Shown piece after piece: positions 1 through 25,707 of a stretch of DNA of 64,000 nt. Under the pieces are notes generated by a model. It did no database searches. It was not told where the DNA came from and saw only the letters and a program-made list of their open reading frames with translations. A program made the position numbers and the translations under genes. Position 1 is the stretch's first letter. Each line of letters opens with the position of its first letter. Origin of the DNA: a virus (lineage: Duplodnaviria > Heunggongvirae > Uroviricota > Caudoviricetes); the IMG/VR virus record IMGVR_UViG_3300035394_000193; one strand, written 5' to 3'.

Positions 1-594
1 ATCTCTCGATGTAATTTGTGGTTTATAGTCAGAACCAGGTTTCAATTTATCAAGGTTTGGATCAATAAGGATTTGTTGTTCCTTTACAGTAGTCTTGTTG
101 ATTTGTTCAACTAAAGGTTTCTGTACAATTGCCCGGTTTTTGTATTCTTCGGCTGTATTTGGTTCCCAGATATCCGTTTCAGTACGAACGGGAATACTTT
201 GAATCATTTGGATCAACTCTCCTTTTTCAAGGATTGACTTGAGGCAAAGCAATTCGTTTGAGGTAAATTCACCCCATGAAGTTCCACCAACTACCAGATC
301 TGCTGTGGCAACGCCCATACCATTGGTACGTTCTTTTGTCAAAACATTCTGAATGTAAGTTTCGGCTGACTTAATGAAGTAATCAAGTTTTTCAGGTACG
401 GTTGTGACTACTTTTACATAACCACGTTTGGTTGGGTCATCAATCATCACATCATTTTGTTGATATGTGTTTTTGAATCCCGTGAATGCTCCTTGAGATT
501 TATCAAAGAACTTTGCATAATCTTTCACAATTGCTACATACCTTGCAGCAGCGTCTTGTGTCAGTGCTAATACTAATTTAAGTTTTCTTGACAT
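1..594 (-). CDS. hypothetical protein, partial (C-terminal part lies beyond window start)
   Basis: Minus-strand frame open from ATG (revcomp of cat at 592-594) to window edge with no stops; sits immediately downstream of the PurA-like gene in the same operon; no recognisable motif. Confidence 0.5.
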   Translation of the reverse strand, partial: MSRKLKLVLALTQDAAARYVAIVKDYAKFFDKSQGAFTGFKNTYQQNDVMIDDPTKRGYVKVVTTVPEKLDYFIKSAETYIQNVLTKERTNGMGVATADLVVGGTSWGEFTSNELLCLKSILEKGELIQMIQSIPVRTETDIWEPNTAEEYKNRAIVQKPLVEQINKTTVKEQQILIDPNLDKLKPGSDYKPQITSRD

Positions 595-608
595 TTTGTT
601 TTTGTTTA

Positions 609-1691
609 TTAAAATGATTTAAGGTTTTCGGATTTATCGCTATGACTAAGTAATACTTCAGAAAATCCTAAAGTAGTATTAATCATATCAATAAAATCAT
701 ATTCGCTTAGGGCTTGTATTAATTGCCCATTAATAGTCAATTGCCAATCGTGTTCTACGTGATCAAGACAAGTAATGACTAATACATCACGATGTTTGTT
801 TAGGTATTCGTCTTTACTAACAGCATATTGTAACAAATCTAAATCCAGAATGGATATTCTAAACTCACCTTGCCATTTGTTATACACATTTGTTTCAAGA
901 GGATTAGGTTTGATATTATGAATAAACTGTTCATTAGTCATTGGACCATTACCATGACGAGTTTGGTATGCTCTAGTTACTGCATAGCATTTAGGAGTAT
1001 ATCCCATTTCTAAGATATTTGTTGTTCCTACATTCGAGCGAGTAACATGTGGGAAGAATCCATAATGTTGGTCAAGAAGTAACCCTTGTGAACCTTCAAA
1101 GATATGTGATGGAACTGATGGCAAAACAGTGTACATTTTAATTCGAGCATGTGTAGTGATAAAGTCTATTGCTTTACGAAACTCAATATTATTAGCTGTA
1201 CAAAGATAAAATTCTTCCATTAAACCATATTTGATATCAAATACAGTTTTATTGAATAAATCTTCAAATAACAATGAATGATACGCTTCTTCTCTGCGTT
1301 TAGTGGAGCCTACACCTGTGCCACATGTTCCATTTTTTGCATCCATACTTTGATTATACTGCTTATCCAATGGAGTAGTTACTGGACATTTTGCATGGAT
1401 ATGCAAAATAGGACGAATTCCTTTCTGTTCCAATACTTTCAATTCATTATAGATACCAACAGGATCAACTGTACAATATTGTGACCAATAAGTCGGGGCT
1501 CCATTTAAAGAACCTGATCCAAAATTGGAAAAAATATGTCGAAGTTCATCTTTTACAACGGTATGACCTGCTTGTTGACCTCCTGAATATCGGATTATTG
1601 CAGCATTTGGATTTTGAAGAGAAAGGTAGTTTGTTACTAATCCTTTCCCTTCATCTCCAAATTCTATGCCTATTACAGCTTTTGCATTCAT
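609..1691 (-). CDS. adenylosuccinate synthetase family protein, short form (PurA/PurZ-like)
   Basis: 360 aa ORF carrying PurA signature motifs: GDEGKG P-loop near the N-terminus, GGQQAGHT (GGxNAGHT), GTCGTGVGS (GTTxxGIGP-like), FEGSQG (FEGAQG). It is about 70 aa shorter than bacterial PurA, as in the archaeal/viral PurZ-like clade. Confidence 0.8.
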   Translation of the reverse strand: MNAKAVIGIEFGDEGKGLVTNYLSLQNPNAAIIRYSGGQQAGHTVVKDELRHIFSNFGSGSLNGAPTYWSQYCTVDPVGIYNELKVLEQKGIRPILHIHAKCPVTTPLDKQYNQSMDAKNGTCGTGVGSTKRREEAYHSLLFEDLFNKTVFDIKYGLMEEFYLCTANNIEFRKAIDFITTHARIKMYTVLPSVPSHIFEGSQGLLLDQHYGFFPHVTRSNVGTTNILEMGYTPKCYAVTRAYQTRHGNGPMTNEQFIHNIKPNPLETNVYNKWQGEFRISILDLDLLQYAVSKDEYLNKHRDVLVITCLDHVEHDWQLTINGQLIQALSEYDFIDMINTTLGFSEVLLSHSDKSENLKSF

Positions 1692-1811
1692 TTATTCAGC
1701 TGCAGTTTCTTCTACAACTTCTTCGACTTGAACCTCAGCAGTTTCTTCAACTGGAGTTTCAGTTTGGCCCAGTTCTTCAAGACTGGTTGATTGATATTGA
1801 ATATTTCCCAT
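1692..1811 (-). CDS. small acidic ORF (39 aa), stop codon abuts the PurA-like start
   Basis: ATG at 1811 (revcomp of cat 1809-1811); translates MGNIQYQSTSLEELGQTETPVEETAEVQVEEVVEETAAE with stop tta at 1692-1694; too short to support firmly. Confidence 0.3.
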   Translation of the reverse strand: MGNIQYQSTSLEELGQTETPVEETAEVQVEEVVEETAAE

Positions 1812-1838
1812 GGTTTTTATTAATTTATTGATTGTGAA

Positions 1839-2732
1839 TTACAACATTTGGAATGATGGAGGATTATCCTTGGATGGACCAAGTATTGGATTCTCCGGGG
1901 TTGAACCATATGGATGCGGCTCAGTAATAACTGTTGATTTTTCAACAGTTTTAGTATTTTCAAATACAATCCTGGCAATCGTTTTAGGAATATCAGTTAT
2001 ATTTGCAATTTTGATACAGTTTTCACCAAGTACTTCTGCCCAACCGTGATATACATCACTTGAATATCCAATAAATAAATGGTAGACATTATACGTTTCT
2101 TTTGCCTTGGCTATTAATTCAGCCGAAGTAAACGTTGATGCTTCGGAACTACCCATGATTTCTTTGATGGCTGAAGCTGGATAGGATTTGTGATTGTTTT
2201 CATCACCAATGGTAAAGAGAAATCCTTTTTGGCCACGTTTCTCAAAACTGTCAAGTACAGTATGATAAGCAGCAAAATAATGAGCCAAACCATATGATTC
2301 GCCTCCATTACCACCGCCGCCACCTTCAGGCCATACACTTGTTAACCAATGATCAAGTAATGCATCACTTGATTCAAATTGAGCAACTTGTAAAGGAGAA
2401 GCATCACATTTGTGATCACCTACTGCTAAGAATAATAATTGAGGGTCTGGAATTCCAGCCTCAATAATAGTACCCATAATAGTAGGAAGCCCCTCTTTAA
2501 TTAATTGATGGGGTATAACACCCATTGAACCGGTAACGTCAAGTGCAAGTACAATTGACACTGTGTTTGGATGATCTGCAGAATCTCTTGATTCACGAAT
2601 TTTCACATCTCTTGGATTCATATCAGGATGAATCTGACGTTGGGTAAAAACTTGTTCAAAAGATTTTGTAGCATAACCTAAGTCTATACTACGACTTGCA
2701 CGATCTACTGTTGAATATTGGCCGTATCCCAT
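1839..2732 (-). CDS. von Willebrand factor A (vWA) domain protein
   Basis: 297 aa; MIDAS-like motif ALDVTGSMG (DxTGS); stop/start overlap (ATGA) with the upstream gene 2732-3100, so it is operonic. Confidence 0.7.
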   Translation of the reverse strand: MGYGQYSTVDRASRSIDLGYATKSFEQVFTQRQIHPDMNPRDVKIRESRDSADHPNTVSIVLALDVTGSMGVIPHQLIKEGLPTIMGTIIEAGIPDPQLLFLAVGDHKCDASPLQVAQFESSDALLDHWLTSVWPEGGGGGNGGESYGLAHYFAAYHTVLDSFEKRGQKGFLFTIGDENNHKSYPASAIKEIMGSSEASTFTSAELIAKAKETYNVYHLFIGYSSDVYHGWAEVLGENCIKIANITDIPKTIARIVFENTKTVEKSTVITEPHPYGSTPENPILGPSKDNPPSFQML

Positions 2733-3100
2733 TAGACCAACTCAATTTCATAAGTATGTCCAAAAAGACTATTGTAACGTTTTTTACATTCATTTAATTG
2801 AATGGTAGTGTTACGAATTTCGTATGCGGCTTTCGCATCAGCTTCAATAAAAGCTTCAGGATCGAAATCAACCATTTTTAATGTGGTTACATTTTCCGGC
2901 GACATATCAAGGGATGCTTCAACATTACGATTTAATCGTTTTAATGTTTGAGCCATATCCTCAATTTTACGTTTGTAAGAAAGTTCAGCATCTTCTAAAA
3001 TAGAAAGAGCACGCCCTTCTTTAATTTGTTTAATGTTTCTGGATAGGGATGCCCATAGGGTTCCATTTTTACCAGCAACTTCTTCAGTAATTTCTGACAT
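2732..3100 (-). CDS. hypothetical protein (helical, coiled-coil-like)
   Basis: 122 aa ORF, charged and helix-favouring composition; first gene downstream of the small-RNA array on the minus strand. Confidence 0.5.
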   Translation of the reverse strand: MSEITEEVAGKNGTLWASLSRNIKQIKEGRALSILEDAELSYKRKIEDMAQTLKRLNRNVEASLDMSPENVTTLKMVDFDPEAFIEADAKAAYEIRNTTIQLNECKKRYNSLFGHTYEIELV

Positions 3101-3884
3101 TGTTTTGATTTTGTTGTTAATAAATAATAATGAATTAAAAATGGAAATTAAACATGTAATTTTGGCGAGCCGTTAACGGGCTCGAGTTTTAGAAGTAACA
3201 TGTTTATAGCCAAGTATATGGACATAGAAAGCAGACAGGTGTGCGGATTTGAACCGTTATCATCCGGTCGAAACCAGAAGAATTGAACCTAGAAGTAACC
3301 TATCTATAGCCATGAAAATGCAAAAGAAATTGGGAATTAAATTAGTAATTTTTACGATTACGAATGTAGAATTAGAAGTAACTAATTTGTAGCCAATTTG
3401 TGTTTTAAAAGAAAATGAAATTGTGTCAGTGGAGTTCAAATTAAGAGTTTGATGCCTTTCGGCGGAAGTAACTAGACACATAGCATTTTAAAAATGCACT
3501 ATCTTTCTAACTTAATTAGGTTGGGGTATGCCCAAAGATAATACACTGTATTGAAAAAATAAACAACTAATGGGAATCGGCACCCAAAATATCTAGACAC
3601 TAAAGTAACGAAATGCTCCAACCAAGTTAAGATTATTAATCTTACCATCGAATCTTCGCGCCGTCACACTATAACGGTTTATGTCTAATATGTCTGCTAG
3701 TACAGTTGTTTATTTTAAGATTGTTGGTTTTTACTTTAAAAACCTAAAGTCAGCCATAAAAAGATTAAGGTTCATGATTTGAAAACCCTGTAAATAACCA
3801 AATCATCTTTAAATAAAGTTCAGGCCGGAACTTTTTCAAGATTTACAGAGTTTATATTGTTGTAGTAATTATGTAAGTAAAATG

Positions 3885-3959
3885 AAGTGTAGGAGCGGGC
3901 TCGAACCGCTGACCTTTCTTACTTTCGTAAGACTGCTCTAACCTCCTGAGCTACCTATA
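3885..3959 (-). ncRNA. tRNA-like RNA with canonical acceptor, D- and T-arms but a GAAA-tetraloop hairpin in place of the anticodon arm
   Basis: Minus-strand sequence GTATAGG-TA-GCTCAGGAGGTTAGAGC-A-G-TCTTAC-GAAA-GTAAGA-AAGGTC-AGCGG-TTCGAGC-CCGCT-CCTACAC. The 7-bp acceptor has one mismatch, the D-loop AGGAGGTTA and the T-loop TTCGAGC are canonical, but the anticodon position is a 6-bp stem closed by a GAAA tetraloop (4- or 6-nt loop, no 7-nt anticodon loop). It lies directly 3' of motif copy 3965-3987. Confidence 0.5.
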
Positions 3960-4120
3960 CGGTCAAGAAGTAACTTACATATAGCCACTAAGTATTTGTT
4001 AAAAGAAAAGGAAATTTCGCACGTAAAGCTTAAACCCAAGATAAGTGCCCTAAGGGCGGAAGTAACGATACGAATAGCCTATTGTAAAATAAAGGAAATT
4101 GTACATCTAATTTTTACGAG

Positions 4121-4176
4121 ACAGCTACTCTAACCAACTGAGCTACAAGCTGGGACTCGAACCCAGGACCCGCTGT
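4121..4176 (-). ncRNA. tRNA elbow-like element: T-arm hairpin and D-arm-like hairpin enclosed by a 5-bp closing stem, with no acceptor or anticodon arm
   Basis: Minus strand ACAGC-GGGTC-CTGGG-TTCGAGT-CCCAG-C-TTGTAGCTCAGTTGGTTAGAGTAGCTGT-CTCG. A canonical T-arm (CTGGG/CCCAG, loop TTCGAGT) precedes a canonical D-arm sequence (TAGCTCAGTTGGTTAGAGTA), and the outer ACAGC/GCTGT can pair. The arm order is inverted relative to a tRNA, so it cannot be a normal tRNA gene. Confidence 0.35.
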
Positions 4177-4415
4177 TTTAGAAGTAAGATATACATAGCC
4201 TTATGTATTTTTATTCAGGTAGTGGACACATACTAATAATAGTAATATGTCGAGGATGAGCCCAACTATTTCTGTTAGCTAAACATTCTTTGATTGATTG
4301 AACAATGTTTGGATTCGGCAATGTTATTGAAACTTCATCATTTTGAAAATTTTGTGCCGTAAAAGTTTCTACAGCATAATCAGGAACTAGTAAAAAGCAA
4401 ACAAAGTAGTTCATT

Positions 4416-5354
4416 TTATTTAGGTTTAGGTATTGCAAAGGACACTCCAATAGAACCTAACAACAATACAAGAACAACTAGTAGAGATGCAATTGTAGGC
4501 ACCTCAATAAGCCAATTTGTATTGATATATTGAGCAGCAGGTAATAACATCTTTACTCCTATAAATAAGAGAACGATTGTAATACCATATTTTAGTGCCC
4601 ATAATTTATCAACGGCACTTGCAAGAACAAAATACAAAGCCCTTAATCCTAACACTGCAAAGATATTCGAGGTATATAGAACAAAGACATTAGTAGTAAC
4701 ACCAAATGCTGCTGGAATGCTATCCACGGCAAACATTATGTCAGTAGTTTCAATCATTAAGACGGTAATGAATAAAGCTGTTGCATATCGTACAATTTTA
4801 GCTCCATCATGTTTCTTAATAAAGAATTTTTTACCATGATATTCAGCAACTACAGGAAAGTGTTTACGAAAGAATAGAACAATTTTATTCTCATGTATGT
4901 CTGGATCTCCGCTATCTTTTGAAAACATTAATTTAAGTGCAGACCAAATTAAGATTAGTGCAAATACATATAGTATTGGATGAAACAAACTAATAAGTGT
5001 TGCTCCTCCAATTATGAATAATGCTCTAAAAATGATTGCACCAAGAATGCCCCAAAATAATGCTATGTGTTGATACTTGGCTGGTGTCGCAAAATATCCG
5101 AAGATCAGATAAATGACAAACAAATTATCTACACTTAATGACTTTTCAATCACATACGCAGTGAACCATAAATTACCAATATCATGCCCATATTCCCAAT
5201 AAACCCAGCCCCCAAACATGCAAGATATGGCTATCCATACTGCACTCCAACCAAGGGCTTCTTTAAACGAAAATGCGTGTTCTTTTTTGTTAACGACCAA
5301 AAGGTCAATTAGCAACAATACAATTACTATTGCTAAGAAAATAATCCACCTCAT
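4416..5354 (-). CDS. terC: TerC family integral membrane protein
   Basis: 312 aa, many predicted TM helices, N-terminus MRWIIFLAIVIVLLLIDLLVV and overall pattern typical of the TerC/Alx family; sits within the Ter-type gene neighbourhood. Confidence 0.75.
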   Translation of the reverse strand: MRWIIFLAIVIVLLLIDLLVVNKKEHAFSFKEALGWSAVWIAISCMFGGWVYWEYGHDIGNLWFTAYVIEKSLSVDNLFVIYLIFGYFATPAKYQHIALFWGILGAIIFRALFIIGGATLISLFHPILYVFALILIWSALKLMFSKDSGDPDIHENKIVLFFRKHFPVVAEYHGKKFFIKKHDGAKIVRYATALFITVLMIETTDIMFAVDSIPAAFGVTTNVFVLYTSNIFAVLGLRALYFVLASAVDKLWALKYGITIVLLFIGVKMLLPAAQYINTNWLIEVPTIASLLVVLVLLLGSIGVSFAIPKPK

Positions 5355-5426
5355 ACTTATCTATTGTTTTTAAAAGTTAAAATAAAAGGATGTATTGCTA
5401 CATCCTTTTACAAATTGATTGTGTAA

Positions 5427-6050
5427 TTAATCCGTTAAACTCGCGATTAGCACTTCAGCAATCGTCATGCCGGAACTTTCAATTTCATCGAAAGTTTTTG
5501 TATCGACAATGTCAAATTTCGCACCATATTTGCTTACGAGATCATCGTCAAGCATGGTTAAAAACCGGGTTGCATTGCGATCATTCCCTACCTGGAGGAA
5601 GCTGATTCCAATTTCATCATCGCGTTCAATTACGCGGGTGGCTTCCACAATTGCTTTTACAACTTCTTCTTGGCTGTCCGGCTCACCGTCAGTTACAACA
5701 ATCAGAATGATTGGCTTTACACCTTTACGGGTGCGATTGGCTGTATAGTTGGTCAATACTTTTTTCAGCATTAAAGCTGTATCAGTACCTCCCATTGGCT
5801 CACTTTCACGGAATATACGGGCAACTTGGCTTGTACCATCTGTTACATTCTCATGCATTACTACTGCACGATTGAATAGGACAACAGTAATACCATCGTC
5901 ATCAGATTCGGCACATTTATTGGCTACGGCAACGGTTGCTTCTTCTGCTTCCTGCCATCTGGTTTTACCATGTGATCCTGGATTTGCCATACTACCACTG
6001 CGGTCTATTGCAACGATAAAGTCATACTTTTTTAAATCTTCACTTGTCAT
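5427..6050 (-). CDS. vWA domain protein (TerY-like)
   Basis: 207 aa; MIDAS motif IVAIDRSGSM (DxSxS) and VVTDGEP (TDG) typical of vWA domains; GC-richer than the surrounding phage genes. Confidence 0.75.
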   Translation of the reverse strand: MTSEDLKKYDFIVAIDRSGSMANPGSHGKTRWQEAEEATVAVANKCAESDDDGITVVLFNRAVVMHENVTDGTSQVARIFRESEPMGGTDTALMLKKVLTNYTANRTRKGVKPIILIVVTDGEPDSQEEVVKAIVEATRVIERDDEIGISFLQVGNDRNATRFLTMLDDDLVSKYGAKFDIVDTKTFDEIESSGMTIAEVLIASLTD

Positions 6051-6068
6051 TTTGTTTTGTTTTAATGA

Positions 6069-6938
6069 TTATTTAAGGAGATAATCTTCTTTAATAAGAA
6101 GGTCTTTGATGAATTGTAAGTTCTTTTGGTAATCGGGAATTAAGTGATAACCATTACCTATTGCTAAATGATATAGATTGGCTAAAACTTTTCTTGCTTG
6201 ATACATTACGAACACAGTAAATGCAAGTTCGTCTTTATGATTTAGAATATACTTGACAACACGTGTGTTTGGTAAAAAGTTTTCATTCTTGATAATTTTA
6301 TCTAAGAACAAAAGATTCTTAACAAAAGCATAGTTTAAGTAATTCTCAACTTTTGGGTCAATGGTAGGATCAGATAATTCAGCAAAGTAAAGGAAAACGT
6401 GATCATTGGTGATGTTATTTTCTTTAAAAGTGCGCTCAATAATTCGTTCATGTGAACCGGTGATTTTGATATCATCCATCATGATTAAAAACTTTCTTTC
6501 TAAGAATGCTTTATCAATTTGGAATCCATCTTTGGAGATTAAGGCAAGGCGTTGTTCAGCGCTTAATTCTCCATAGTCTTCTTTATATGTATTGGTACGA
6601 TGAATTTTACTTAATTCTACGACTGGATAACCTATATCAACAAGATGTTGGTTAAGAAATTGTACGAAGTAATTACTCAACGACCAAGTAGCGGTTGGAA
6701 TGAAACAGTAGGGACTTGACATCACAACAAACTCACGATGATTCTGCTGCAAAATGTTTAAAAATACTTTACTATTAATGAACTTTCTGGCAAGTTCGTA
6801 GCCATATTTCCTGGCAATGTCTTTATCGCCAAACTTAAACTTGGAGTATTCTACAGGTAGAAATCCATACTTTAGTTGATCAAATTCAGTACTGTCAGTT
6901 TTCTTAATGATTTTATGCAGAGCAAATGTATATCTCAT
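6069..6938 (-). CDS. phosphoribosyltransferase (PRTase)-like protein of a Ter-associated biosynthetic module
   Basis: 289 aa; PRPP-binding-type motif FLIMMDDIKITGS (four hydrophobics, DD, x(I/V)TTG-like); overlaps the HAD gene start by 4 nt, so operonic. Confidence 0.6.
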   Translation of the reverse strand: MRYTFALHKIIKKTDSTEFDQLKYGFLPVEYSKFKFGDKDIARKYGYELARKFINSKVFLNILQQNHREFVVMSSPYCFIPTATWSLSNYFVQFLNQHLVDIGYPVVELSKIHRTNTYKEDYGELSAEQRLALISKDGFQIDKAFLERKFLIMMDDIKITGSHERIIERTFKENNITNDHVFLYFAELSDPTIDPKVENYLNYAFVKNLLFLDKIIKNENFLPNTRVVKYILNHKDELAFTVFVMYQARKVLANLYHLAIGNGYHLIPDYQKNLQFIKDLLIKEDYLLK

Positions 6939-7627
6939 TTGTAAACCTCCTTCACATAAGCAACAACATCCATAATTGTTTTATCATTAGAGTTGATGAT
7001 CATAGATTGCATCCCAATTTGAGTAGGACCAAAACCATCAGCTATTGGATTATCTCCAACATGTAGTATCTCTTTAGTTACAAATCGAGAGCGAGTTGTA
7101 ATGTATCCAAAAAATGCGGGGTTTGGTTTTGCTAATTCAATTTCATCAGAGAAGTATTCATCTACAAACATGAAATAAACCTTTTGTTTACGAAGTACTT
7201 CTCGAATGGTTTCACCTAGAATAAAACCTGTATTGGAACCAATAGTTAATACTGGAACTATATCAGATAATATATCAAGAGCCCGAAAAGTATTATCATC
7301 GTATAGACTTGGAGGATTTTCCAAGAATAAAGTTTGAAATTCATCAGAGATACTACTAAGAGTAGAATAATCAATCGGAGTTAATTCTTCATAACCCATC
7401 TCTAATAATAGAAAGGCAATCATTTGAAGGCTGTCAAAATGTAGTCCTTGTATTTCAACCAGACGCGTACATTGAATGTCTATCTTTCTCATCATTTTTG
7501 CTATTTCATATTCAGTTAACTTTTTAGGGTTATACTTTTGAAATAGCATGGCCGCTTTTGCTTTTTTGAAATCAGGATTTGATTTCAGCAACGTAAGCCA
7601 CACGTCAAAGGAAAGGTGGTTAATCAT
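6935..7627 (-). CDS. HAD-superfamily phosphatase-like protein
   Basis: 230 aa; N-terminal LSFDVWLTL resembling HAD motif I (hhhDxDxT, imperfect) and C-terminal HVGDNPIAD matching motif IV (GDxxxD). Confidence 0.55.
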   Translation of the reverse strand: MINHLSFDVWLTLLKSNPDFKKAKAAMLFQKYNPKKLTEYEIAKMMRKIDIQCTRLVEIQGLHFDSLQMIAFLLLEMGYEELTPIDYSTLSSISDEFQTLFLENPPSLYDDNTFRALDILSDIVPVLTIGSNTGFILGETIREVLRKQKVYFMFVDEYFSDEIELAKPNPAFFGYITTRSRFVTKEILHVGDNPIADGFGPTQIGMQSMIINSNDKTIMDVVAYVKEVYK

Positions 7628-7693
7628 GTCTTTTTTAGGATTTAAAAAGGAGTGCCATTACAGCACCCCTTTTGATTTAATTGGTAAAGAGTC

Positions 7694-8269
7694 CTACAAG
7701 AGGGTTTTGATTGTTTCGGCAATCTGGTTAATGTCACCATTGGCACCATTACCCATTGCTTCAAATTTCCACTCGCCGTTGTGACGGTAGAGTTGACCCA
7801 TAATCATACCGGTTTTTCCGGAATAGTCTTCAGACAGATCAAATTTGGCAAGTTCAGCAGCATTCGCAGGATTGAATACCCTCACAAAGGCATTACGAAC
7901 CTGACCAAAATGCTGTCTCCTGGCTTCGGCTTCATAAATGTTTACAATAACAACAATGCGATGTACGCCTGCGGGGACGGCAGTTAAATCAACATTGATT
8001 ACTTCATCGTCGCCATCACCGGCACCGGTAAGATTATCACCCTGATGGGTAACACCAAATTCTTTCAAATGACGGAAGTAAATAACACCCTTATTGCCTT
8101 CGTAAATTGACTTGTCTTCCTTTAAAAGGATAACAGTACTGTCAAGGTCAACAGCGGGTCCATCGGTTTTTACATCCCATCCACAGCCAATGGCTACTTG
8201 GGTAAGTCCTGGGTTTTCTTTGGTAATGTTTACTCTTTCTCCTTTTTCAAGGTTCAATGGATTGTTCAT
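7694..8269 (-). CDS. terD: TerD domain protein (tellurite resistance / stress protein family)
   Basis: 191 aa; the GDNLTGAGDGDDEVINVDL calcium-binding DGDD-type segment and overall pattern are characteristic of TerD/TerE/TerZ. Confidence 0.85.
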   Translation of the reverse strand: MNNPLNLEKGERVNITKENPGLTQVAIGCGWDVKTDGPAVDLDSTVILLKEDKSIYEGNKGVIYFRHLKEFGVTHQGDNLTGAGDGDDEVINVDLTAVPAGVHRIVVIVNIYEAEARRQHFGQVRNAFVRVFNPANAAELAKFDLSEDYSGKTGMIMGQLYRHNGEWKFEAMGNGANGDINQIAETIKTLL

Positions 8270-8328
8270 TTTGTTCTGTTGTTAATGTTTACTTTTTCTC
8301 CTTTTTCAAGAGCCAATGGATTTTCCAT
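8266..8328 (-). CDS. 20-codon upstream ORF created by tandem duplication of the terD 5' end; its stop overlaps the terD ATG
   Basis: 8287-8328 is a near copy of 8228-8269 (GTTTACT(C/T)TTTCTCCTTTTTCAAG...CAATGGATT...CAT). It reads MENPLALEKGEKVNINNRTK, against the TerD start MNNPLNLEKGERVNI; the uORF TGA (8266-8268) overlaps the TerD ATG (8267-8269) as ATGA. Confidence 0.4.
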   Translation of the reverse strand: MENPLALEKGEKVNINNRTK

Positions 8329-8375
8329 TTGTTTTGTTTTTAATTGTTAATTGATTTTATTGGGTAAGCGTGATT

Positions 8376-8690
8376 CTAAATTAAATTTTCCAATGGATAA
8401 GCATTTCGGATTGACTCCATATCAATTTCATACATGAAATCATCTGTGTTATCATTACATTGCATAACATGTGTTACATCAATATCCTGCGGCAATCGAA
8501 AATTGTGTACAGGTGAGCCTATCATTCGAACTTTTTCAATTATTGCCTCAACAGCTGCTTCAACATGAAGTTTAGCAAATGCTATGGCGACTTGTCCAGT
8601 ATCAGGAGGAATATTCTCTCCATAAGGATCAAATTCTAAACTTCCTCGACACTGAGTAATAAATTCTGATATTGTAGGTACTGTTTCCAT
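8376..8690 (-). CDS. hypothetical protein
   Basis: ORF track gives 8376-8723 from an alternative TTG start that lies inside a terminator hairpin; the first ATG is at 8690 (METVPTISEF...), giving about 104 aa. Confidence 0.45.
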   Translation of the reverse strand: METVPTISEFITQCRGSLEFDPYGENIPPDTGQVAIAFAKLHVEAAVEAIIEKVRMIGSPVHNFRLPQDIDVTHVMQCNDNTDDFMYEIDMESIRNAYPLENLI

Positions 8691-8711
8691 TGTTTCTAAG
8701 ATTAAATTAAA

Positions 8712-8748
8712 AACCTCCGCCAACTATTATTGTCAAGCGGCGGAGGTT
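8712..8748 (-). terminator. rho-independent terminator / attenuator hairpin
   Basis: AACCTCCGCC-N17-GGCGGAGGTT, a 10-bp GC-rich stem followed on the minus strand by TTTTTAATTT; it lies between the 703-aa gene and the ATG at 8690. Confidence 0.55.
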
Positions 8749-8756
8749 TAATTGAA

Positions 8757-8886
8757 GGGGGTTTAACACCCCGCGGTTTGGCGAAGGGATCGCCTTCTGG
8801 TACAAAGTAATAAGGAATTGATTCAGTGGCTTTTTCAGCGACACCCCTTCTATTTTATGTACATAGAAGTAACTCAATCATAGCCT
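8757..8886 (-). promoter_or_regulatory. motif copy plus two further GC hairpins forming a structured leader upstream of gene 8376-8690
   Basis: Motif copy at 8865-8886 (AGGCTATGATTGAGTTACTTCT on the minus strand), then hairpins GGCGAAGGGATCGCC (8780-8794) and GGGGGTTTAACACCCC (8757-8772), and then the terminator hairpin. Confidence 0.35.
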
Positions 8887-8911
8887 TGTTATTATCACTT
8901 TGCCCAATCTT

Positions 8912-11023
8912 TTATATACCCATATATTCCATGGTCTTTACATACGAAGATGCAAAGTCATCGAATAGGAAGTGAGTTTCTGCAGTTTCTTTCGATACAA
9001 CACGACCACGTGCCTCGACATGCCATTGTAGCAAGTCATATACACTGACCTTTGGTAAAGATATGTACGGTTTCAACGCATCGAAAAATTCCGACGATTG
9101 ACCGTAAACAAAACTTGAAAATCCATCATAATCCAGGTCCAAATAAATTGATTCGCGAGCAACTAAATCGTATGCTGCAACCAATACCATATTTCCAGCA
9201 CTTTTTAGGAGCATAGAGTTTTGAATGGTATCTGGTTTCCAGGTTTTGTTCGATTCAGGAAATTGTCGTTCCATTACACCAGCAACACATTCTTTCAAAT
9301 CAGAAAGTTTTCCTCCTTGAAAGTTATGTATTACCATAATGAAATAATTGTACCCGCGTCTTACAGCTTCGTCAACCACAATATCAACATATTCTGCACA
9401 AGCGCCTTGACGATGACGAACATCACCAGAGTAACATCCAAGTCCAGGTACATTTTGATTTCCATTGTATCCAAATGACATACTGCCTTTTGGACCAATT
9501 AAAAATCCGTGTAAATCCAAATCTTGGTCACCATGTTGATCATACCAATGAATAAAAGGTCTAATAACCTTTTTACCTTCACCAAATGGTGTTCTTTGTC
9601 CACGTATTACGGGAACTAAACTATCATTCAAGCTACGCATGTTTGTTGGTAATGGAATCTTTTTCAATTCTTCATCAATCCAACAATCGCCGAGTGCAGG
9701 CAAATCAGCAAACTTACCTTTAATGATATCAAAGATAGTAGACTGTATAGCATCAATCTTTTCAGCTGCAATTGCAGGTAGTGAGGGAAGATTAGTATGT
9801 TTCCTTGCACCTTTAATCATAACCTTGCGATTATTTGAAGGTAGTCTTCTATCTTCAAAATGACTAAATACCTCAAACAATACTTTATTTGAAGCTTTGG
9901 CTCCAATTTTAGCAAGAAGATTGAGAATCAATTGCAAACTACTTTTATTCGCAGTACGAACAAGAAAGTCTAACCTACGTAGAAATTCACCAGGACGTTC
10001 AGCAAGCTTTGTAATCCCAGTGTTAGCGGAAATACTAAAAGCTTTAGTTACTTCGCCGTACCATGATACAACTTTCTCATTTCTAATTTGGTCAAATGCT
10101 TTATAAGCACGAGGAAACAATGCTTTATATTCACCAGGATGTAAGATTTCTCCAATCCTAACCCAACGTTGGTCTTTTAATTTCATTTCACGAACATCCA
10201 AACTAGATTTCTCCAAGAGTTCTAAAATGAATTTACGTTCAGCTCGTTTGAATTTCTTGAACTTGAATTTCTCTCTTTCAGGATTTGCTACAGTAACATA
10301 ACTTCTACGATAGCCACTTTGTTGTCTTACTGTTTTACGAGGTACGGCAGGAAGAGATACATCTCCGCCTGATAGATATACGATGATTCTCAATACATCG
10401 GTCGATGTAAGAGATGGCAATTGAACTGTACCAAGACCACGGCCGGTAGTAATCAATTTGCCAATCATTGTACATAAGTTTTCTTTAAAAGGGATACTTT
10501 CGGGGAAAGTTAGGAATGGATATTCTGCAACAAACCACTCAAGAACTTTTAAATCAGCAGGAGTCAATGATGTACCTGCTTTTGCAAGACTTGTAAAGAT
10601 ATTAGCAAAATCCTGTTCAGTGCCAAGGGTAATAGGTCGGTATTTTACTTGCTCGAATGCTGTACTTTTCGTACGAGTCCATTCGTTAGCAGTGAAAGAT
10701 CCTCCAGACCAATAACCAAGAAGTTGATTAAACCATAATTGTTGTTCCGACATTTCAATTACTTGTGTCGGAAATCCTTTGTATATGGGTTGATAGTCAC
10801 GTTGACCACCGGTCATTTCTTTTAAGTAGTCGAGAACTTCATTATAGAAGTCTTTAATGTTTGCGGCATCAGTATATCCCAATGCTTCTAAAGCATCTGA
10901 ATCTAACATATAGCCAAACCTCATTAGTTCAGCTTGGCACATCATAGCCAAATTGCGGTTATCAATTCCGTTATTCGGAACAACCACAAGACCTTTTTGG
11001 AAAGCGATTACATTTTTATTCAT
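8912..11023 (-). CDS. large hypothetical protein (703 aa), first gene of the Ter-type operon
   Basis: Long uninterrupted ORF with no Walker A motif and no domain I can name from sequence; followed by the motif and hairpin leader. Confidence 0.6.
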   Translation of the reverse strand: MNKNVIAFQKGLVVVPNNGIDNRNLAMMCQAELMRFGYMLDSDALEALGYTDAANIKDFYNEVLDYLKEMTGGQRDYQPIYKGFPTQVIEMSEQQLWFNQLLGYWSGGSFTANEWTRTKSTAFEQVKYRPITLGTEQDFANIFTSLAKAGTSLTPADLKVLEWFVAEYPFLTFPESIPFKENLCTMIGKLITTGRGLGTVQLPSLTSTDVLRIIVYLSGGDVSLPAVPRKTVRQQSGYRRSYVTVANPEREKFKFKKFKRAERKFILELLEKSSLDVREMKLKDQRWVRIGEILHPGEYKALFPRAYKAFDQIRNEKVVSWYGEVTKAFSISANTGITKLAERPGEFLRRLDFLVRTANKSSLQLILNLLAKIGAKASNKVLFEVFSHFEDRRLPSNNRKVMIKGARKHTNLPSLPAIAAEKIDAIQSTIFDIIKGKFADLPALGDCWIDEELKKIPLPTNMRSLNDSLVPVIRGQRTPFGEGKKVIRPFIHWYDQHGDQDLDLHGFLIGPKGSMSFGYNGNQNVPGLGCYSGDVRHRQGACAEYVDIVVDEAVRRGYNYFIMVIHNFQGGKLSDLKECVAGVMERQFPESNKTWKPDTIQNSMLLKSAGNMVLVAAYDLVARESIYLDLDYDGFSSFVYGQSSEFFDALKPYISLPKVSVYDLLQWHVEARGRVVSKETAETHFLFDDFASSYVKTMEYMGI

Positions 11024-11052
11024 GTTTTAATTTATTTAGGGTTTAAAAGTTT

Positions 11053-11409
11053 TTATTGTATTAGAGTTTTAGACTTATAAGGAGTTACTTTAGCTAGATA
11101 AATTTTTTGTTTAGTGTAAAAATCTTTTTGTTTTTGCATTTCAATTGTATGGAATGCACGAATAGCTTCTATTGTAGGAAATTGTTTTTTAATACTTTCC
11201 TCGTCAATTATTTTGACAAGCTTTGGTGTGAATTGTTCTAATCCTGAAGTATAACCATTTTCATACCACCAAAATATGTTATACCAAATAGGAATAAACC
11301 AATAGTAAGCATATTCAATGATGTAAGATTCCTCACAATAATGGGTTAATCGTAATTTAAATTTCTTTTTCATTAGGGATGAGTTTAGATAAAGAAAAAT
11401 GAAAGCCAA
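11053..11409 (-). CDS. hypothetical protein
   Basis: 118 aa ORF, aromatic-rich. Confidence 0.45.
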   Translation of the reverse strand: MAFIFLYLNSSLMKKKFKLRLTHYCEESYIIEYAYYWFIPIWYNIFWWYENGYTSGLEQFTPKLVKIIDEESIKKQFPTIEAIRAFHTIEMQKQKDFYTKQKIYLAKVTPYKSKTLIQ

Positions 11410-11446
11410 ACCATAAGCCTGGCTTTCATGTATTTTGTTATATTGT

Positions 11447-11836
11447 TTACATTGGTTTGTTCCACCAAGAAAGCCATTTAGGCACTCCTTTTGGAAATAC
11501 TTCAGTCATGGTAAGACCTTCTTCACCAGCATATATTAATGTAACAATTATTGCACCAATTGCTGCAATTATATTTAGTATCGGAGTAAGTGATACTAAC
11601 ATTAGCAATGCAAAGGACCATACTTTTAAGCCTATTGGCTTATAGGTATAAGTAGGGTGACGTGTTACTTCAATAAAGCATGGCACAGTAGCCATCCACT
11701 TTAAGAAGAAGAATGTAATAATGGCGATGATTATCCAGAAAATCATGTTATTGTTTTTTAAAAAATTCGTAATTAAAGAAATTGTCGATCTTTGTTCCTT
11801 TACAGCTAGGAAAAACACTGCCAGGTCCATCAGCAA
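11447..11836 (-). CDS. small membrane protein
   Basis: 129 aa, 2-3 predicted TM helices. An internal Met at about 11746 would give ATGA coupling with the upstream gene's stop, so the true start may be there. Confidence 0.45.
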   Translation of the reverse strand: MLMDLAVFFLAVKEQRSTISLITNFLKNNNMIFWIIIAIITFFFLKWMATVPCFIEVTRHPTYTYKPIGLKVWSFALLMLVSLTPILNIIAAIGAIIVTLIYAGEEGLTMTEVFPKGVPKWLSWWNKPM

Positions 11837-12035
11837 TAATACTTACAACAACCCAAATAAATGTAATTATTACTGCAACAGCATTTACTCCAGGAATAAA
11901 AGCTAAAAGAATTACAACAATTATATTTCTTACCTTCAATCCTAATGGGTCTCCTGAATCAGCACAAGGAAAGTAAAGAAACCACAGTCCCCACAACAAT
12001 GTTGCAAGGACTGTGAGTATGTATATACCTAACAT
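11748..12035 (-). CDS. small membrane protein
   Basis: 95 aa, three hydrophobic helices (LTVLATLLWGLWFLYF..., IIVVILLAFIPGV..., VIITFIWVVVSII). Confidence 0.45.
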   Translation of the reverse strand: MLGIYILTVLATLLWGLWFLYFPCADSGDPLGLKVRNIIVVILLAFIPGVNAVAVIITFIWVVVSIIADGPGSVFPSCKGTKIDNFFNYEFFKKQ

Positions 12036-12150
12036 TAGGTTTTAGGTTTTTTGTGATTGCGAAGCCATTCGTTCGTCATCCAATAAATCCATACCACAGC
12101 GGCTACGATTACAAGCGCACCTAGGCCTTCATAAAATGCTCCCATCTTGC

Positions 12151-12930
12151 TTACCTGTTTAAAAGTATGCCGGAAGTTGCTCCGAACACATTGTTAGTAC
12201 CGTATTTTGATACTCCTTTCTGCGCCCAAGTCATTTCAATTTCCAGTTCCTTAAGTTTCAACATAGCCGGTTGTGATAGCACATCCTTAGTCTTCGCATC
12301 CCATTCGGCAGCTTTATAATTATTCTCGGCTTCCTGACCTTTTGACAACGCCAACTTATTCAATTCAGCTTGTTTAGCTGTTGCTTCAGCAGCATCGGCA
12401 ATTCCTTGTGGAATATCAACATCGGTTATCCTAACACGGCTACAAGAAACAAAGAAAGCAGGAAACTCCTTGACTAATATTGCAAGAATTTGTGTTTCAG
12501 CTGAATCCCTTTTGCTTAGGTTTAATTCAGAGGCACTATATTGAGGTATCACTTGTTTAGCTGCAGAGGACAAAGTAGTCATAATCTTAGCATCAAGTTG
12601 TTCTTTACCGATTGAACTATGAATTACATTTGCTTTTAAGCCATCAAGTTTATAGTCAATAGAAACGGCAACCGGAGTCTTCATATTATTGCGATCATTG
12701 AACTCGAACTTTTCAGTAATAGTCTTTTCACGAACGTCGTACTCGACTAGATCGTCCCACAACCAATGGATTCCCATATTCAATCCTTCCGGATGAACGA
12801 CTTGCATGTTTGTTTCACCACCCCACGAGATCTCTACCCCTTTGTGGCCTGATTGTACACTTTCACATCCTGTCAGGAGCATAACTGCTACAACCGACAA
12901 TAAAAATAAGAAATTTCGCATTTTTTTCAT
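12151..12930 (-). CDS. lipoprotein, possibly SPFH/band-7-like
   Basis: 259 aa; signal peptide plus lipobox MKKMRNFLFLLSVVAVMLLTGC. The middle region (VVHPEGLNMGIHWLWDDLVEYDVREKTITEKFEFNDRNNMKTPVAVSIDYKLDG) loosely resembles the SPFH fold; the alanine-rich C-terminus looks coiled-coil. Confidence 0.55.
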   Translation of the reverse strand: MKKMRNFLFLLSVVAVMLLTGCESVQSGHKGVEISWGGETNMQVVHPEGLNMGIHWLWDDLVEYDVREKTITEKFEFNDRNNMKTPVAVSIDYKLDGLKANVIHSSIGKEQLDAKIMTTLSSAAKQVIPQYSASELNLSKRDSAETQILAILVKEFPAFFVSCSRVRITDVDIPQGIADAAEATAKQAELNKLALSKGQEAENNYKAAEWDAKTKDVLSQPAMLKLKELEIEMTWAQKGVSKYGTNNVFGATSGILLNR

Positions 12931-12982
12931 TGTTTTTTGTTTTTAGTAATTGATGATTGTTGTTTTAATTGGTATTGATTTG

Positions 12983-14177: not shown

Positions 14178-14179
14178 CG

Positions 14180-25703: not shown

Positions 25704-25707
25704 CAAA

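What the first reader, a model, noticed from the sequence alone, without database searches (positions are those of the whole stretch)
1..11023. Ter-type stress/biosynthetic gene module inside the phage arm
One minus-strand operon encodes TerD, a TerC membrane protein, two vWA (TerY-like) proteins, a PRTase-like protein, a HAD-like phosphatase, a 703-aa unknown, and a short PurA-family ligase. That is the gene set of the bacterial Ter-associated biosynthetic cluster, which has been predicted to make a nucleoside-like metabolite. Hand counts of sample stretches give roughly 43-50% GC in terD and the vWA genes against about 30% in phage structural genes, which suggests recent acquisition from a bacterial host. 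I do not know of such a module, or its role, being described in a crAss-like phage. Candidate roles are anti-defence, host takeover, or nucleotide modification
Basis: partly seen in the sequence, partly recalled or inferred. Interest (0 to 1): 0.8.

Follow-up and report, generated by a model that had tools for sequence, protein, structure and literature searches.

The report
Phage Ter cassette inside RNA array
The region holds a real tellurite-resistance-type (Ter) gene cassette in a large crAss-like phage, but it is three separate mobile modules rather than one operon, and the cassette sits inside an undescribed array of tRNA-like small RNAs next to a protein whose model resembles Ro60.

Summary
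Profile searches confirm TerD, TerC/Alx, PRTase_3, a HAD hydrolase, a TerF/TerY-like vWA protein and a short PurA-family protein. A structure model confirms the second vWA protein.

The region splits into three modules that occur separately in other genomes:
- **Ter cassette (about 4416-8690):** TerD, HAD, PRTase_3, vWA and TerC. It is a condensed copy of the Bacteroidota ter cluster. Four related phage contigs that keep the flanking genes lack it. The best bacterial homologues are only 36-53% identical, so recent capture is not shown.
- **Triad (609-3100):** a 122-aa protein, vWA and a PurA-like protein. It recurs in about 200 cluster C mycobacteriophages, in Rhizobium and Vibrio phages, and in a bacterial chromosome. 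It is absent from all 80 bacterial ter loci examined.

The same motif array follows the homologous gene in 20 of 21 loci. The Ter cassette is inserted within this array. GC of 43% holds only for terD and one vWA gene. Phage Ter systems were already described in 2021.

The parts
8912..11023 (-). 703-aa protein ('big703'). Residues about 1-440 and 636-703 form a helical body. Residues about 445-635 form a TerD-fold beta-sandwich. This is module 1.
8690..8886 (-). Scaffolded small-RNA unit 1. It lies directly after the big703 stop codon. Its cargo ends in a strong hairpin plus U-run.
   Evidence: Motif GCTAT-N8-TTACTTC with an 8/8 complementary partner. The MFE fold closes the unit. The first unit begins GCTATG(A/G)T in four of the five arrays compared, which suggests orthology.
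8376..8690 (-). 104-115-aa protein of unknown function. It is the first gene of the inserted cassette.
   Evidence: No family in Pfam, PHROGs, NCBIfam or PADLOC. Called as 104 aa in public gene calls. Absent from L031.
7694..8269 (-). TerD. It keeps the sequence GDNLTGAGDGDDE, which I take from memory to be the Ca-binding motif (Ter cassette).
   Evidence: Pfam TerD 219.7 bits. 52% identical to TerD in the viral contig L022, in the same gene order. At most 48% identical to Bacteroidota TerD.
6935..7627 (-). HAD-superfamily hydrolase. Its stop overlaps the PRTase start by 4 nt. Motif I reads SFDVWLTL, so the Asp+2 position is Trp.
   Evidence: TIGR01549 24.4 against 23.3; phrog_14393 1.8e-26. 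Motif conserved in the Pedobacter, Rhizobium-phage and E. coli-phage partners.
6069..6938 (-). PRTase_3 (ComF-like phosphoribosyltransferase) with an intact PRPP loop, MMDDIKITGSH.
   Evidence: Pfam PF15610 261 bits. D155, D156, T160 and G161 are invariant. The HAD-PRTase_3 pair occurs in phage records of several genera (157 records hold a PRTase_3 homologue; the pair was checked in two) and in all 80 Bacteroidota loci.
5427..6050 (-). vWA protein of TerF/TerY type, with MIDAS DRSGS.
   Evidence: VWA_2 7.5e-13; vWA-TerF-like 32.4 against 29.4. A weak homologue sits in the same position in L022.
5382..5411 (-). 13-bp hairpin plus T-run between the vWA gene and terC. It could be a terminator or attenuator.
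   Evidence: Consensus scan only.
4416..5354 (-). TerC/Alx-family membrane protein. It is the last gene of the cassette.
   Evidence: TIGR03718 357.1 bits against a cut-off of 246.4; Pfam TerC 168.8 bits.
4092..4201 (-). RNA unit 2, a YrlA (Y RNA)-like tRNA mimic. The T-arm comes before the D-arm, both enclosed by an anticodon-like stem and a 9-bp closing stem.
   Evidence: Rfam RF02553 35.5 bits, E 1.1e-5, below the gathering score of 69. Orthologues in L031 (29.9 bits) and L119 (42.8 bits). Covariation over 5 orthologues: 98% of cells paired, 13 of 24 pairs with double changes.
3997..4080 (-). RNA unit 3, same scaffold with a small hairpin cargo.
   Evidence: Conserved in L031.
3862..3987 (-). 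RNA unit 4, a cloverleaf tRNA-like RNA. Its anticodon loop is replaced by a GAAA tetraloop.
   Evidence: ARAGORN reports 'tRNA-???'. Rfam tRNA 37.4 bits. Sequence read directly. The closing stem ATGTAAGT/ACTTACAT pairs 8/8.
3140..3486 (-). RNA units 5-8 (3398-3486, 3330-3395, 3224-3312, 3140-3212), same scaffold with short hairpin cargos.
2732..3100 (-). 122-aa protein, first gene of the conserved triad (module 3).
   Evidence: No family found. Homologue precedes the vWA2 and PurA-like genes in L024, L026-L031, L121 and the Ca. Electronema locus L123.
1839..2732 (-). Second vWA protein (vWA2) with MIDAS DVTGS (module 3).
1692..1811 (-). 39-aa micro-ORF between the vWA2 and PurA-like genes. Coordinates are mapped from the public gene calls on L032; I did not read the window sequence itself.
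   Evidence: Called in public gene calls. An ORF of 39-88 aa lies in the same position in L029, L031, L121 and phage Sebata.
609..1691 (-). Short (360 aa) PurA-family enzyme. The catalytic core is kept and the substrate-contact residues are changed (module 3).
   Evidence: Pfam 138.5 bits. All PurA equivalogs are far below cut-off, and PurZ scores 45 against 300. D13, K16, H41, Q224 and T239 are kept. N38Q, T129C and V273H are changed, R143 is lost, and T300, T301 and R303 are changed across 61 family members.

Best explanation
Window 1-11 kb is a variable accessory region in the standard-code (probably early) arm of a ~169-kb crAss-like phage whose late arm is TGA-recoded. It consists of three independently mobile modules, not one Ter biosynthetic operon.

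**Module 1: the 703-aa protein and eight small RNAs.** The RNAs share the scaffold 5' GGCUAU, an 8-9-nt stem, UUACUUC, a variable cargo, the complementary stem strand, then AAUUUCC. The cargos include a YrlA-like tRNA mimic and a tRNA without an anticodon. I infer that the protein binds these RNAs as a Ro60/Y-RNA-like particle acting on tRNA or structured RNA, with a TerD-fold domain in the place of Ro60's vWA domain. The RNA structure and the gene linkage are shown. The binding and the function are inferred.

**Module 2: the Ter cassette.** It runs unknown gene, TerD, HAD, PRTase_3, vWA, TerC, and was inserted between RNA unit 1 and unit 2. It is a condensed Bacteroidota-type ter cluster. I infer the following from Anantharaman et al. 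2012 and Iyer et al. 2021:
- PRTase_3 joins a base-like compound to PRPP.
- The HAD enzyme removes the phosphate, giving a nucleoside-like signal.
- TerD, the vWA protein and the TerC/Alx transporter form a metal-dependent, membrane-linked complex.
- This complex changes envelope or ion state in the infected cell, most plausibly to exclude superinfecting phages or to buffer stress.

**Module 3: the 122-aa, vWA and PurA-like triad.** It is a separate cassette shared with mycobacteriophages, Rhizobium and Vibrio phages, and a bacterium. Its PurA-like enzyme probably phosphorylates a purine-type nucleotide at the 6-oxo position and transfers it to an amine. The nucleotide is probably not IMP and the amine probably not aspartate.
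For: **Modularity**
- L031 has big703 (69% identical), then the RNA array, then the triad (55-68%). It has none of the six cassette genes.
- L121 has big703, a Band_7 gene, the array and the triad. L119 and L120 have big703 and the array only.
- L022 has TerD, HAD, PRTase_3 and vWA in the same order, without the other modules.
- Five viral contigs, Rhizobium phage TM30, cluster C mycobacteriophages and Ca. Electronema carry the triad alone.
- All 80 Bacteroidota loci show [TerD TerD] HAD PRTase_3 TerD TerD [TelA .. TerC]. None has the PurA-like gene, either window vWA gene or big703.

**RNA array**
- Eight window units carry 8-mers that differ from one another. Six have a perfectly complementary downstream partner, and the MFE fold closes every unit.
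- Across 68 units from 11 loci, 31 have perfect partners. Permuted controls average 9.8, with a maximum of 18 in 200 permutations.
- For the YrlA-like RNA, 98% of cells pair and 13 of 24 pairs change on both sides. No shuffle out of 500 reaches this, and slid controls pair at 35-52%.
- Motif arrays lie just downstream of the big703 homologue on the same strand in 20 of 21 loci with 46-70% protein identity.

**Family assignments**.
Against: - No expression or binding data exist.
- YrlA scores of 30-43 bits are below the Rfam gathering score of 69. I did not see the YrlA Ro-binding motif GNCGAA when reading the unit.
- The conserved 5' motif could partly be a promoter. Copies also lie upstream of protein genes, at 8884 and at L032 12547 and 12673.
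- In the more distant IMG/VR loci the closing-stem complementarity is imperfect.
- The loci with arrays are partly related phages, so they are not 20 independent observations.
- HAD-PRTase_3 and the triad co-occur within 6 kb in Rhizobium phages as well, so a functional link between modules 2 and 3 is not excluded.
- The function of any Ter system remains unproven.
Confidence: 0.6

Rival explanations
1. The whole stretch is one Ter-associated biosynthetic operon recently captured from a bacterial host. The PurA-like ligase replaces the ATP-grasp amidoligase, and the operon makes a nucleoside-like metabolite.
For: - All genes are co-oriented with short gaps.
- HAD-PRTase_3 and vWA2-PurA-like also lie within 6 kb of each other in Rhizobium phage TM30.
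- terD and vWA1 have the highest GC in the arm.
- The 703-aa protein carries a TerD-fold domain.
Against: - The modules are separate in nearly every other genome.
- None of 80 bacterial ter loci carries the PurA-like gene, vWA2 or big703.
- Bacterial identity is at most 53%.
- The GC excess is arm-wide.
- RNA genes and terminator-like hairpins interrupt the supposed operon.
Confidence: 0.12
2. Nucleotide-pool or anti-defence reading. PRTase_3, HAD and the PurA-like enzyme remodel or salvage nucleotides. They might rebuild pools depleted by host defence, destroy signalling nucleotides, or make a modified base for phage DNA. TerD, TerC and the vWA proteins would be accessory.
For: - PRTase_3 homologues occur in about 157 phage records, and in the two examined the HAD-PRTase_3 pair lies away from TerD. 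It sits next to a macrodomain gene in E. coli phage Bas62 and next to an NMNAT/Nudix gene in Rhizobium phage TM30.
- The PurA-like family has altered substrate residues, as PurZ does.
- RefSeq labels homologues '2-aminooxy adenylosuccinate synthetase'.
Against: - No PADLOC match.
- The enzyme is not PurZ (45 against 300 bits).
- I did not look for DatZ, MazZ or DpoZ partners in the window.
- In the window and in L022 the pair is embedded between TerD and a vWA gene, and in the window also TerC, as in bacterial ter clusters.
Confidence: 0.18
3. The repeated GCTAT-N8-TTACTTC element is only a phage promoter or processing signal for a cluster of degenerate tRNA genes. The 703-aa protein would then be an unrelated TerD-domain protein that happens to lie beside the phage's RNA-gene island.
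For: - The motif precedes every unit, and a few copies precede protein genes.
- IMG/VR homologues lie between large tRNA arrays and a tmRNA gene.
- In L007 the motif interrupts a split tRNA-like gene.
- The TROVE relationship has no sequence support.
Against: - The variable 8-mer pairs with a downstream partner far more often than in permuted controls. A promoter spacer has no need to do this.
- The motif is absent from the upstream true-tRNA arrays.
- YrlA-like RNAs lie on the same strand in three phages by Rfam and in five by pattern and covariation.
Confidence: 0.25
4. Positions 1-22 kb are flanking host chromosome or a mis-assembly, not phage DNA.
For: Higher GC than the structural arm. 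Several genes are of bacterial type.
Against: - The same junctions appear in at least six independent assemblies, including a 168.9-kb contig.
- Related phage contigs share genes on both sides of the arm junction.
- A UGA-suppressor tRNA needed for the recoded late arm lies at 17944-18019.
- No gene in the 1-12 kb stretch scanned, nor in the 8.5 kb beyond the window's left end, was called as an integrase.
Confidence: 0.02

Closest known systems
Phage-encoded Ter systems, as in Acinetobacter phage vB_AbaM_ME3 and Caulobacter jumbo phages (Iyer et al. 2021, PMC7824862), and bacterial ter clusters (Anantharaman et al. 2012)
   Same: TerD, TerC, a TerF/TerY-like vWA protein, PRTase_3 and HAD are present. 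The tight HAD-PRTase_3 gene pair and the TerD...TerC order match Bacteroidota chromosomes.
   Different: - The host genome is a crAss-like phage of about 169 kb, not one of the jumbo phages for which these systems were described.
- It has one TerD instead of 2-4 paralogues.
- It has no TelA, TerB, ATP-grasp enzyme, TIM-barrel lyase, or TerY-P kinase and phosphatase.
- It is inserted within a small-RNA array.
Ro60 (Rsr) and YrlA Y-RNA ribonucleoproteins of bacteria and phages (Chen et al. 2014, PMC4201824; mycobacteriophage Ro, e.g. Sebata gp235)
   Same: - A large helical protein is followed on the same strand by one or more small RNAs.
- One RNA has the YrlA layout: T-arm, an optional acceptor-like hairpin, then the D-arm, inside a long stem formed by the 5' and 3' ends.
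- The genes lie near tRNA and tmRNA islands, as in cluster C mycobacteriophages.
   Different: - There is no TROVE sequence signature.
- A TerD-fold domain takes the place of Ro60's vWA domain.
- I did not see the GNCGAA Ro-binding motif. A different conserved scaffold (GGCUAU, UUACUUC, AAUUUCC) is shared by 7-9 tandem RNAs in the window and its four closest relatives (2-6 in the more distant contigs), with varied cargos.
- YrlA scores are below the Rfam gathering threshold.
PurA (adenylosuccinate synthetase) and the phage PurZ enzymes
   Same: PurA fold. The P-loop GDEGKG, His41, Gln224 and Thr239 are conserved. The protein is short like PurZ and archaeal PurA.
   Different: - It fails every PurA equivalog cut-off and the PurZ cut-off.
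- IMP-phosphate and aspartate contacts are replaced family-wide: N38Q, T129C, loss of R143, V273H, and changes at T300, T301 and R303.
- It is always paired with a vWA protein and a protein of about 120 aa.

Membership tests
Ter system (TerD/TerC-centred, Anantharaman 2012) | TerD-domain protein | tested here: met
   PF02342 219.7 bits. The sequence GDNLTGAGDGDDE is present. A second TerD fold lies in the 703-aa protein.
Ter system (TerD/TerC-centred, Anantharaman 2012) | TerC integral membrane protein | tested here: met
   PF03741 168.8 bits; TIGR03718 357 bits against a cut-off of 246.
Ter system (TerD/TerC-centred, Anantharaman 2012) | TerY/TerF-type vWA protein | tested here: met
   vWA1 matches PF10138 at 32.4 against 29.4 bits. 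vWA2 has a vWA fold but belongs to another module.
Ter-associated biosynthetic module | PRTase_3 adjacent to a HAD phosphoesterase | tested here: met
   PF15610 261 bits. The HAD gene overlaps it by 4 nt. The same pair occurs in all 80 Bacteroidota loci.
Ter-associated biosynthetic module | ATP-grasp amidoligase and TIM-barrel C-C lyase | tested here: not met
   No such Pfam or NCBIfam hit among the ten proteins of 609-11023, and none called in the 8.5 kb beyond the left end.
Ter system | TerB and/or TelA | tested here: not met
   Not found in the window module. TelA is present in the Pedobacter counterpart.
TerY-P or other catalogued anti-phage defence system (PADLOC) | Match to a PADLOC model | tested here: not met
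   None of the 10 proteins matches at E <= 0.01.
Ro60/Y RNA RNP | TROVE domain detectable by sequence | tested here: not met
   None of 46 family members hits Pfam TROVE at E <= 10. hhalign against Sebata Ro gives probability 0.3.
Ro60/Y RNA RNP | Ro60-like helical fold | tested here: inconclusive
Ro60/Y RNA RNP | C-terminal vWA domain with MIDAS | tested here: not met
   The beta-rich domain near the C-terminus (residues about 445-635) has a TerD fold.
Ro60/Y RNA RNP | YrlA-type RNA within 4 kb on the same strand | tested here: inconclusive
   Full-length RF02553 matches of 30-43 bits against a gathering score of 69. They lie 0.2-0.8 kb downstream in L031 and L119, and 4.7 kb downstream in the window because of the cassette. 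Covariation is strong.
Ro60/Y RNA RNP | GNCGAA(N)G Ro-binding motif near the RNA 5' end (Chen 2014) | tested here: not met
   I did not see the motif when reading the unit sequences. A different conserved motif is present.
Adenylosuccinate synthetase PurA | Equivalog-level score and IMP/aspartate-binding residues | tested here: not met
   112 bits against a cut-off of 402. N38, T129, R143, V273, T300, T301 and R303 are replaced. The catalytic residues D13 and H41 are kept.
PurZ (2-aminoadenine pathway) | NF038379 cut-off | tested here: not met
   45.3 bits against a cut-off of 300.
crAss-like phages (Crassvirales and relatives) | crAss-type TerL, portal and MCP | tested here: met
   phrog_6681, phrog_6547 and phrog_11589. 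TerL is 27-31% identical to cr52_1, cr125_1 and ProJPt-Bp1, and 45% to a 117-kb gut phage. Formal taxonomic placement was not tested.

The most novel reading that the evidence does not exclude
The 703-aa family and its scaffolded RNA arrays could be an unrecognised, phage-borne branch of Ro60/Y-RNA-like ribonucleoproteins. It would be invisible to sequence profiles. In it, a TerD-fold domain replaces Ro60's vWA domain; TerD domains bind calcium and have been proposed to sense nucleotide derivatives. One protein would be served by 7-9 tandem tRNA-mimic RNAs. In this phage, a Ter cassette predicted to make a nucleoside-like compound sits inside the array. A small-molecule or Ca2+ signal could therefore be coupled to tRNA or RNA surveillance during infection.
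Probability: 0.3. Interest if true: 0.8.

Novelty: new variant of a known kind. Interest (0 to 1): 0.6.

Why it matters
- **Ter cassette.** It extends phage-borne Ter systems to crAss-like phages. It also offers a minimal five-gene version (TerD, HAD, PRTase_3, vWA, TerC) with natural cassette-free relatives as controls. That makes it a tractable handle on the unsolved biochemistry of Ter systems.
- **Small-RNA array.** The region exposes a conserved array of structured, tRNA-mimicking RNAs tied to a large TerD-domain protein in many uncultivated large phages. If this is a Ro60/Y-RNA analogue, such particles would be more diverse than profile searches have shown, and phage tRNA islands would gain an RNA quality-control or counter-defence function.
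- **PurA-like triad.** The 122-aa, vWA and PurA-like triad is shared with about 200 cluster C mycobacteriophages, which are easy to culture. It marks a PurA-like enzyme whose substrates are unknown and probably not IMP and aspartate.

Tried and rejected
- **Near-identical phage DNA.** megablast of 1-11.1 kb against 50,697 phage records found nothing.
- **PADLOC.** No defence-system model matched any module protein.
- **PurZ.** Rejected: 45 against 300 bits, GDEGKG is retained, and PurA models score higher.
- **Sequence-level vWA test for vWA2.** Pfam, a PDB profile search and hhalign against vWA1 all failed apart from the MIDAS motif. Only the structure model settled it.
- **Sequence-level TROVE and TerD tests for the 703-aa family.** All failed. 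Foldseek confirmed only the TerD fold. The afdb50 library was unavailable.
- **X320 in the Pedobacter cluster.** The unknown 320-aa gene between TelA and TerC is not a counterpart of vWA1.
- **Promoter and terminator scan.** Promoter-like sites were no more frequent than in shuffles, so they are uninformative.
- **Anantharaman et al. 2012.** The paper could not be read because it is not held. Its content is cited from memory and through Iyer et al. 2021.
- **Literature.** Searches for the PurA-vWA pairing and for tRNA-like RNAs in crAss-like phages returned nothing relevant.
- **Host-flank idea.** Rejected.

Full report
**Setting.** The window is part of a large phage genome.
- The plus arm (22.5-64 kb) only gives long ORFs when TGA is read as sense. 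Examples are TerL at 743 codons, portal at 739 and a 1451-codon protein.
- Two tRNAs with anticodon UCA are encoded, at 17944-18019 and 25632-25704.
- TerL, portal and MCP match crAss-type PHROGs. TerL is 27-31% identical to Crassvirales and Azobacteroides-phage TerL, and 45% identical to a 117-kb human-gut phage.
- The minus arm (1-22 kb), which holds the finding, uses the standard code.
- Exact-protein look-ups place this sequence in at least six public assemblies, the longest 168,911 bp.
- Beyond the window's left end, the 8.5 kb fetched holds a DUF7873 gene, small ORFs, a DUF3307 gene and a glucosaminidase gene. There are no further Ter genes and no integrase call.
- The region is therefore phage DNA.

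**Observation.**
- TerD, TerC/Alx, PRTase_3, one vWA protein (VWA_2, vWA-TerF-like) and the PurA-family domain pass curated thresholds.
- The HAD protein is weak in Pfam. It passes TIGR01549 and matches a PHROG hydrolase family. It aligns end to end with the HAD partners of PRTase_3 in Pedobacter and in cultured phages.
- The GC claim is overstated. terD is 43.1%, vWA1 is 42.5% and everything else is 32-38%. The whole minus arm (35.0%) is richer than the recoded plus arm (29.5%), with GC3 raised arm-wide.

**Three modules, not one cluster.** I compared the region with related loci using tblastn.
- The closest syntenic relative is L031. It has the 703-aa gene (69% identical), then 0.86 kb of non-coding DNA, then the 122-aa, vWA2, micro-ORF and PurA-like genes (55-68% identical). 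It also shares five backbone genes. It lacks the unknown gene, TerD, HAD, PRTase_3, vWA1 and TerC.
- L119, L120 and L121 have 63-66% identical 703-aa proteins and also lack the cassette.
- The viral contig L022 has TerD, HAD, PRTase_3 and vWA in the window's order, without the other genes.
- A scan of GTDB species genomes with a PRTase_3 alignment returned 80 loci, all Bacteroidota (Mucilaginibacter, Pedobacter, Chitinophaga and relatives), at 47-53% identity.
- Their architecture is [TerD TerD] HAD PRTase_3 TerD TerD, often followed by TelA, an unknown gene and TerC. None holds a homologue of the PurA-like protein, either window vWA protein or the 703-aa protein.
- The window cassette (about 8690-4416) is therefore a condensed Bacteroidota-type ter cluster gained by this phage lineage, or lost from its relatives.
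- With at most 53% identity to any sampled bacterium, and equal similarity to viral contigs, 'recent capture from the host' is not demonstrated.

**What is known about phage Ter systems.** Iyer et al. 2021 (PMC7824862) describe a fairly complete Ter system, with PRTases and HAD enzymes, in Acinetobacter phage ME3. They report shorter TerD/TerC/TerF/TelA operons in Caulobacter jumbo phages and note 'certain other related smaller tailed phages'. They propose a role against superinfecting phages or xenobiotics.
- My phage-database searches agree. TerD occurs in 132 phage records and PRTase_3 homologues in 157 records.
- In two of those records I examined the neighbourhood. The HAD-PRTase_3 pair sits next to a macrodomain gene and a TerC-like gene in E. 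coli phage Bas62, and next to an NMNAT/Nudix gene in Rhizobium phage TM30.
- TerD in gut Jug jumbo phages has also been reported (PMC12880540).
- The presence of a Ter set in a phage is therefore a new member of a known kind. Its occurrence in a crAss-like genome appears to be unreported.

**The PurA-like triad.**
- The 360-aa protein belongs to a very large family of proteins about 365 aa long.
- In an alignment with E. coli PurA, whose sequence I recalled from memory and checked in part against the PDB alignment, the phosphotransfer core is invariant. This covers GDEGKG, His41, Gln224 and Thr239.
- The residues that bind the IMP phosphate and aspartate are replaced in all 61 sequences aligned. 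The changes are N38Q, T129C, loss of R143, V273H, T300 to an aromatic residue, T301Q and a variable R303.
- It is not PurZ (45 against 300 bits).
- Its gene always follows a vWA2 gene, a small ORF and usually a 120-aa gene. This holds in viral contigs, Rhizobium and Vibrio phages, and about 200 cluster C mycobacteriophages. In Sebata the genes are gp261-263, downstream of Pnk and a Ser/Thr kinase.
- The same order occurs in the chromosome of Ca. Electronema aureum, where a UvrD-type helicase follows and toxin-antitoxin and Roc/COR genes lie alongside.
- The substrates are unknown. A different nucleotide and amine pair is the most economical reading.

**The 703-aa protein and the RNA array.**
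- The protein family has no Pfam domain. It gives a confident AF2 model (pLDDT 86.5, pTM 0.80).
- Foldseek and profile comparisons do not support a TROVE relationship, so this remains a lead.
- The 1.3-kb 'gap' between terC and the 122-aa gene is not empty. In E-value mode, Rfam finds a full-length YrlA (Y RNA-like) match at 4097-4195 (35.5 bits) and a tRNA-like RNA at 3886-3960. In the tRNA-like RNA, a GAAA tetraloop replaces the anticodon loop.
- Reading the sequence shows eight tandem units, one at 8886-8690 and seven at 4201-3140. Each unit is built as GGCTAT, 8-9 variable nt, TTACTTC, a cargo, the reverse complement of the variable nt, then AATTTCC. The MFE fold closes every unit through that stem.
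- In 68 units from 11 loci, 31 have a perfect 8-bp partner. Permuting the 8-mers among units gives a mean of 9.8 and a maximum of 18.
- Five orthologous YrlA-like units pair in 98% of cells. Thirteen of 24 pairs change on both sides, no shuffle out of 500 reaches this, and slid controls pair at 35-52%.
- Three of those five keep the acceptor-like hairpin between the T and D arms, as YrlA does. I did not see the YrlA Ro-binding motif when reading the units.
- Motif arrays lie directly downstream of the homologous gene, on the same strand, in 20 of 21 loci with 46-70% protein identity. They are absent from the large true-tRNA arrays upstream of those genes.
- In this phage the Ter cassette lies between unit 1 and unit 2, so it was inserted into the array.

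**Mechanism, with what is shown and what is inferred.**
- Shown: the family assignments, the indel nature of the cassette, the independent distribution of the three modules, the RNA secondary structure, and the linkage of the RNAs to the 703-aa gene.
- Inferred, at about 0.3-0.4: the protein binds the RNAs as a Ro60/Y-RNA-like particle acting on tRNA or structured RNA, with the TerD-fold domain as a metal or ligand-sensing part. Kaur et al. 2020 (PMC7159879) list TerD among domains that may recognise nucleotide derivatives.
- Inferred from the Ter literature: PRTase_3 has an intact PRPP loop. Together with the HAD enzyme it would make a nucleoside-like compound. TerD, the vWA protein and the TerC/Alx transporter would act at the membrane in a metal-dependent way, most plausibly to exclude superinfection or buffer stress.
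- Whether the cassette's product feeds the TerD-fold domain of the neighbouring protein is speculation.

**Verdict.** The single-operon and recent-capture interpretation is only partly right. The Ter cassette by itself is a modest extension of known biology.

Noticed in passing
window 19653-19716 (-): Match to the Pistol self-cleaving ribozyme (RF02679) at 38.8 bits, above the gathering score of 34.5, in the early arm.
   Followed up: no
window 22500-64000 (+), with tRNAs at 17944-18019 (-) and 25632-25704 (+): The late and structural arm is TGA-recoded. ORFs fuse into 743, 739 and 1451 codons when TGA is read as sense. The phage carries two tRNAs with anticodon UCA. The early arm uses the standard code.
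   Followed up: partly
L007 12690-12830 (IMG/VR relative): The GCTAT..TTACTTC motif lies between a tRNA 5' half (acceptor and D arm) and a 3' half (T arm and acceptor). This looks like a split or interrupted tRNA-like gene.
   Followed up: no
L006-L021, L005 (viral contigs): Homologues of the 703-aa protein sit right after arrays of 24-29 tRNA genes, and in several contigs 2-4 kb before a tmRNA gene. In the gut-phage fragment L005, tRNAs and a tmRNA lie just upstream.
   Followed up: partly
L122 and L124 (Mycobacterium phage Sebata): Cluster C mycobacteriophages combine an orthodox Ro protein (gp235), a tRNA island with tmRNA, and the vWA2, small ORF and PurA-like trio (gp261-263). This is the same functional set as in this crAss-like group.
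   Followed up: partly
L123 (Ca. Electronema aureum chromosome) 8660-14265: The 112-aa, vWA2 and PurA-like triad is followed by a 1089-aa UvrD-type helicase with an MJ0043_C domain. Toxin-antitoxin and Roc/COR-LRR genes lie alongside, a neighbourhood resembling a defence island.
   Followed up: no
window 12151-12930 (-): Band_7/SPFH-type lipoprotein (phrog_200). A Band_7 gene recurs next to the 703-aa gene in relatives L031, L119 and L121.
   Followed up: no
L120 (NCBI GCA_053580305.1, 166-kb contig): A contig deposited as a 'Candidatus Saccharimonadaceae' MAG carries a 65% identical 703-aa protein, the RNA array and DUF7873. It is probably a related phage genome binned as bacterial.
   Followed up: no
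window 4211-4414 (-) and 1-594 (-): A 67-aa ORF directly after terC is called in public annotations. The cut gene at the window's left end is a 262-aa DUF7873 protein.
   Followed up: no
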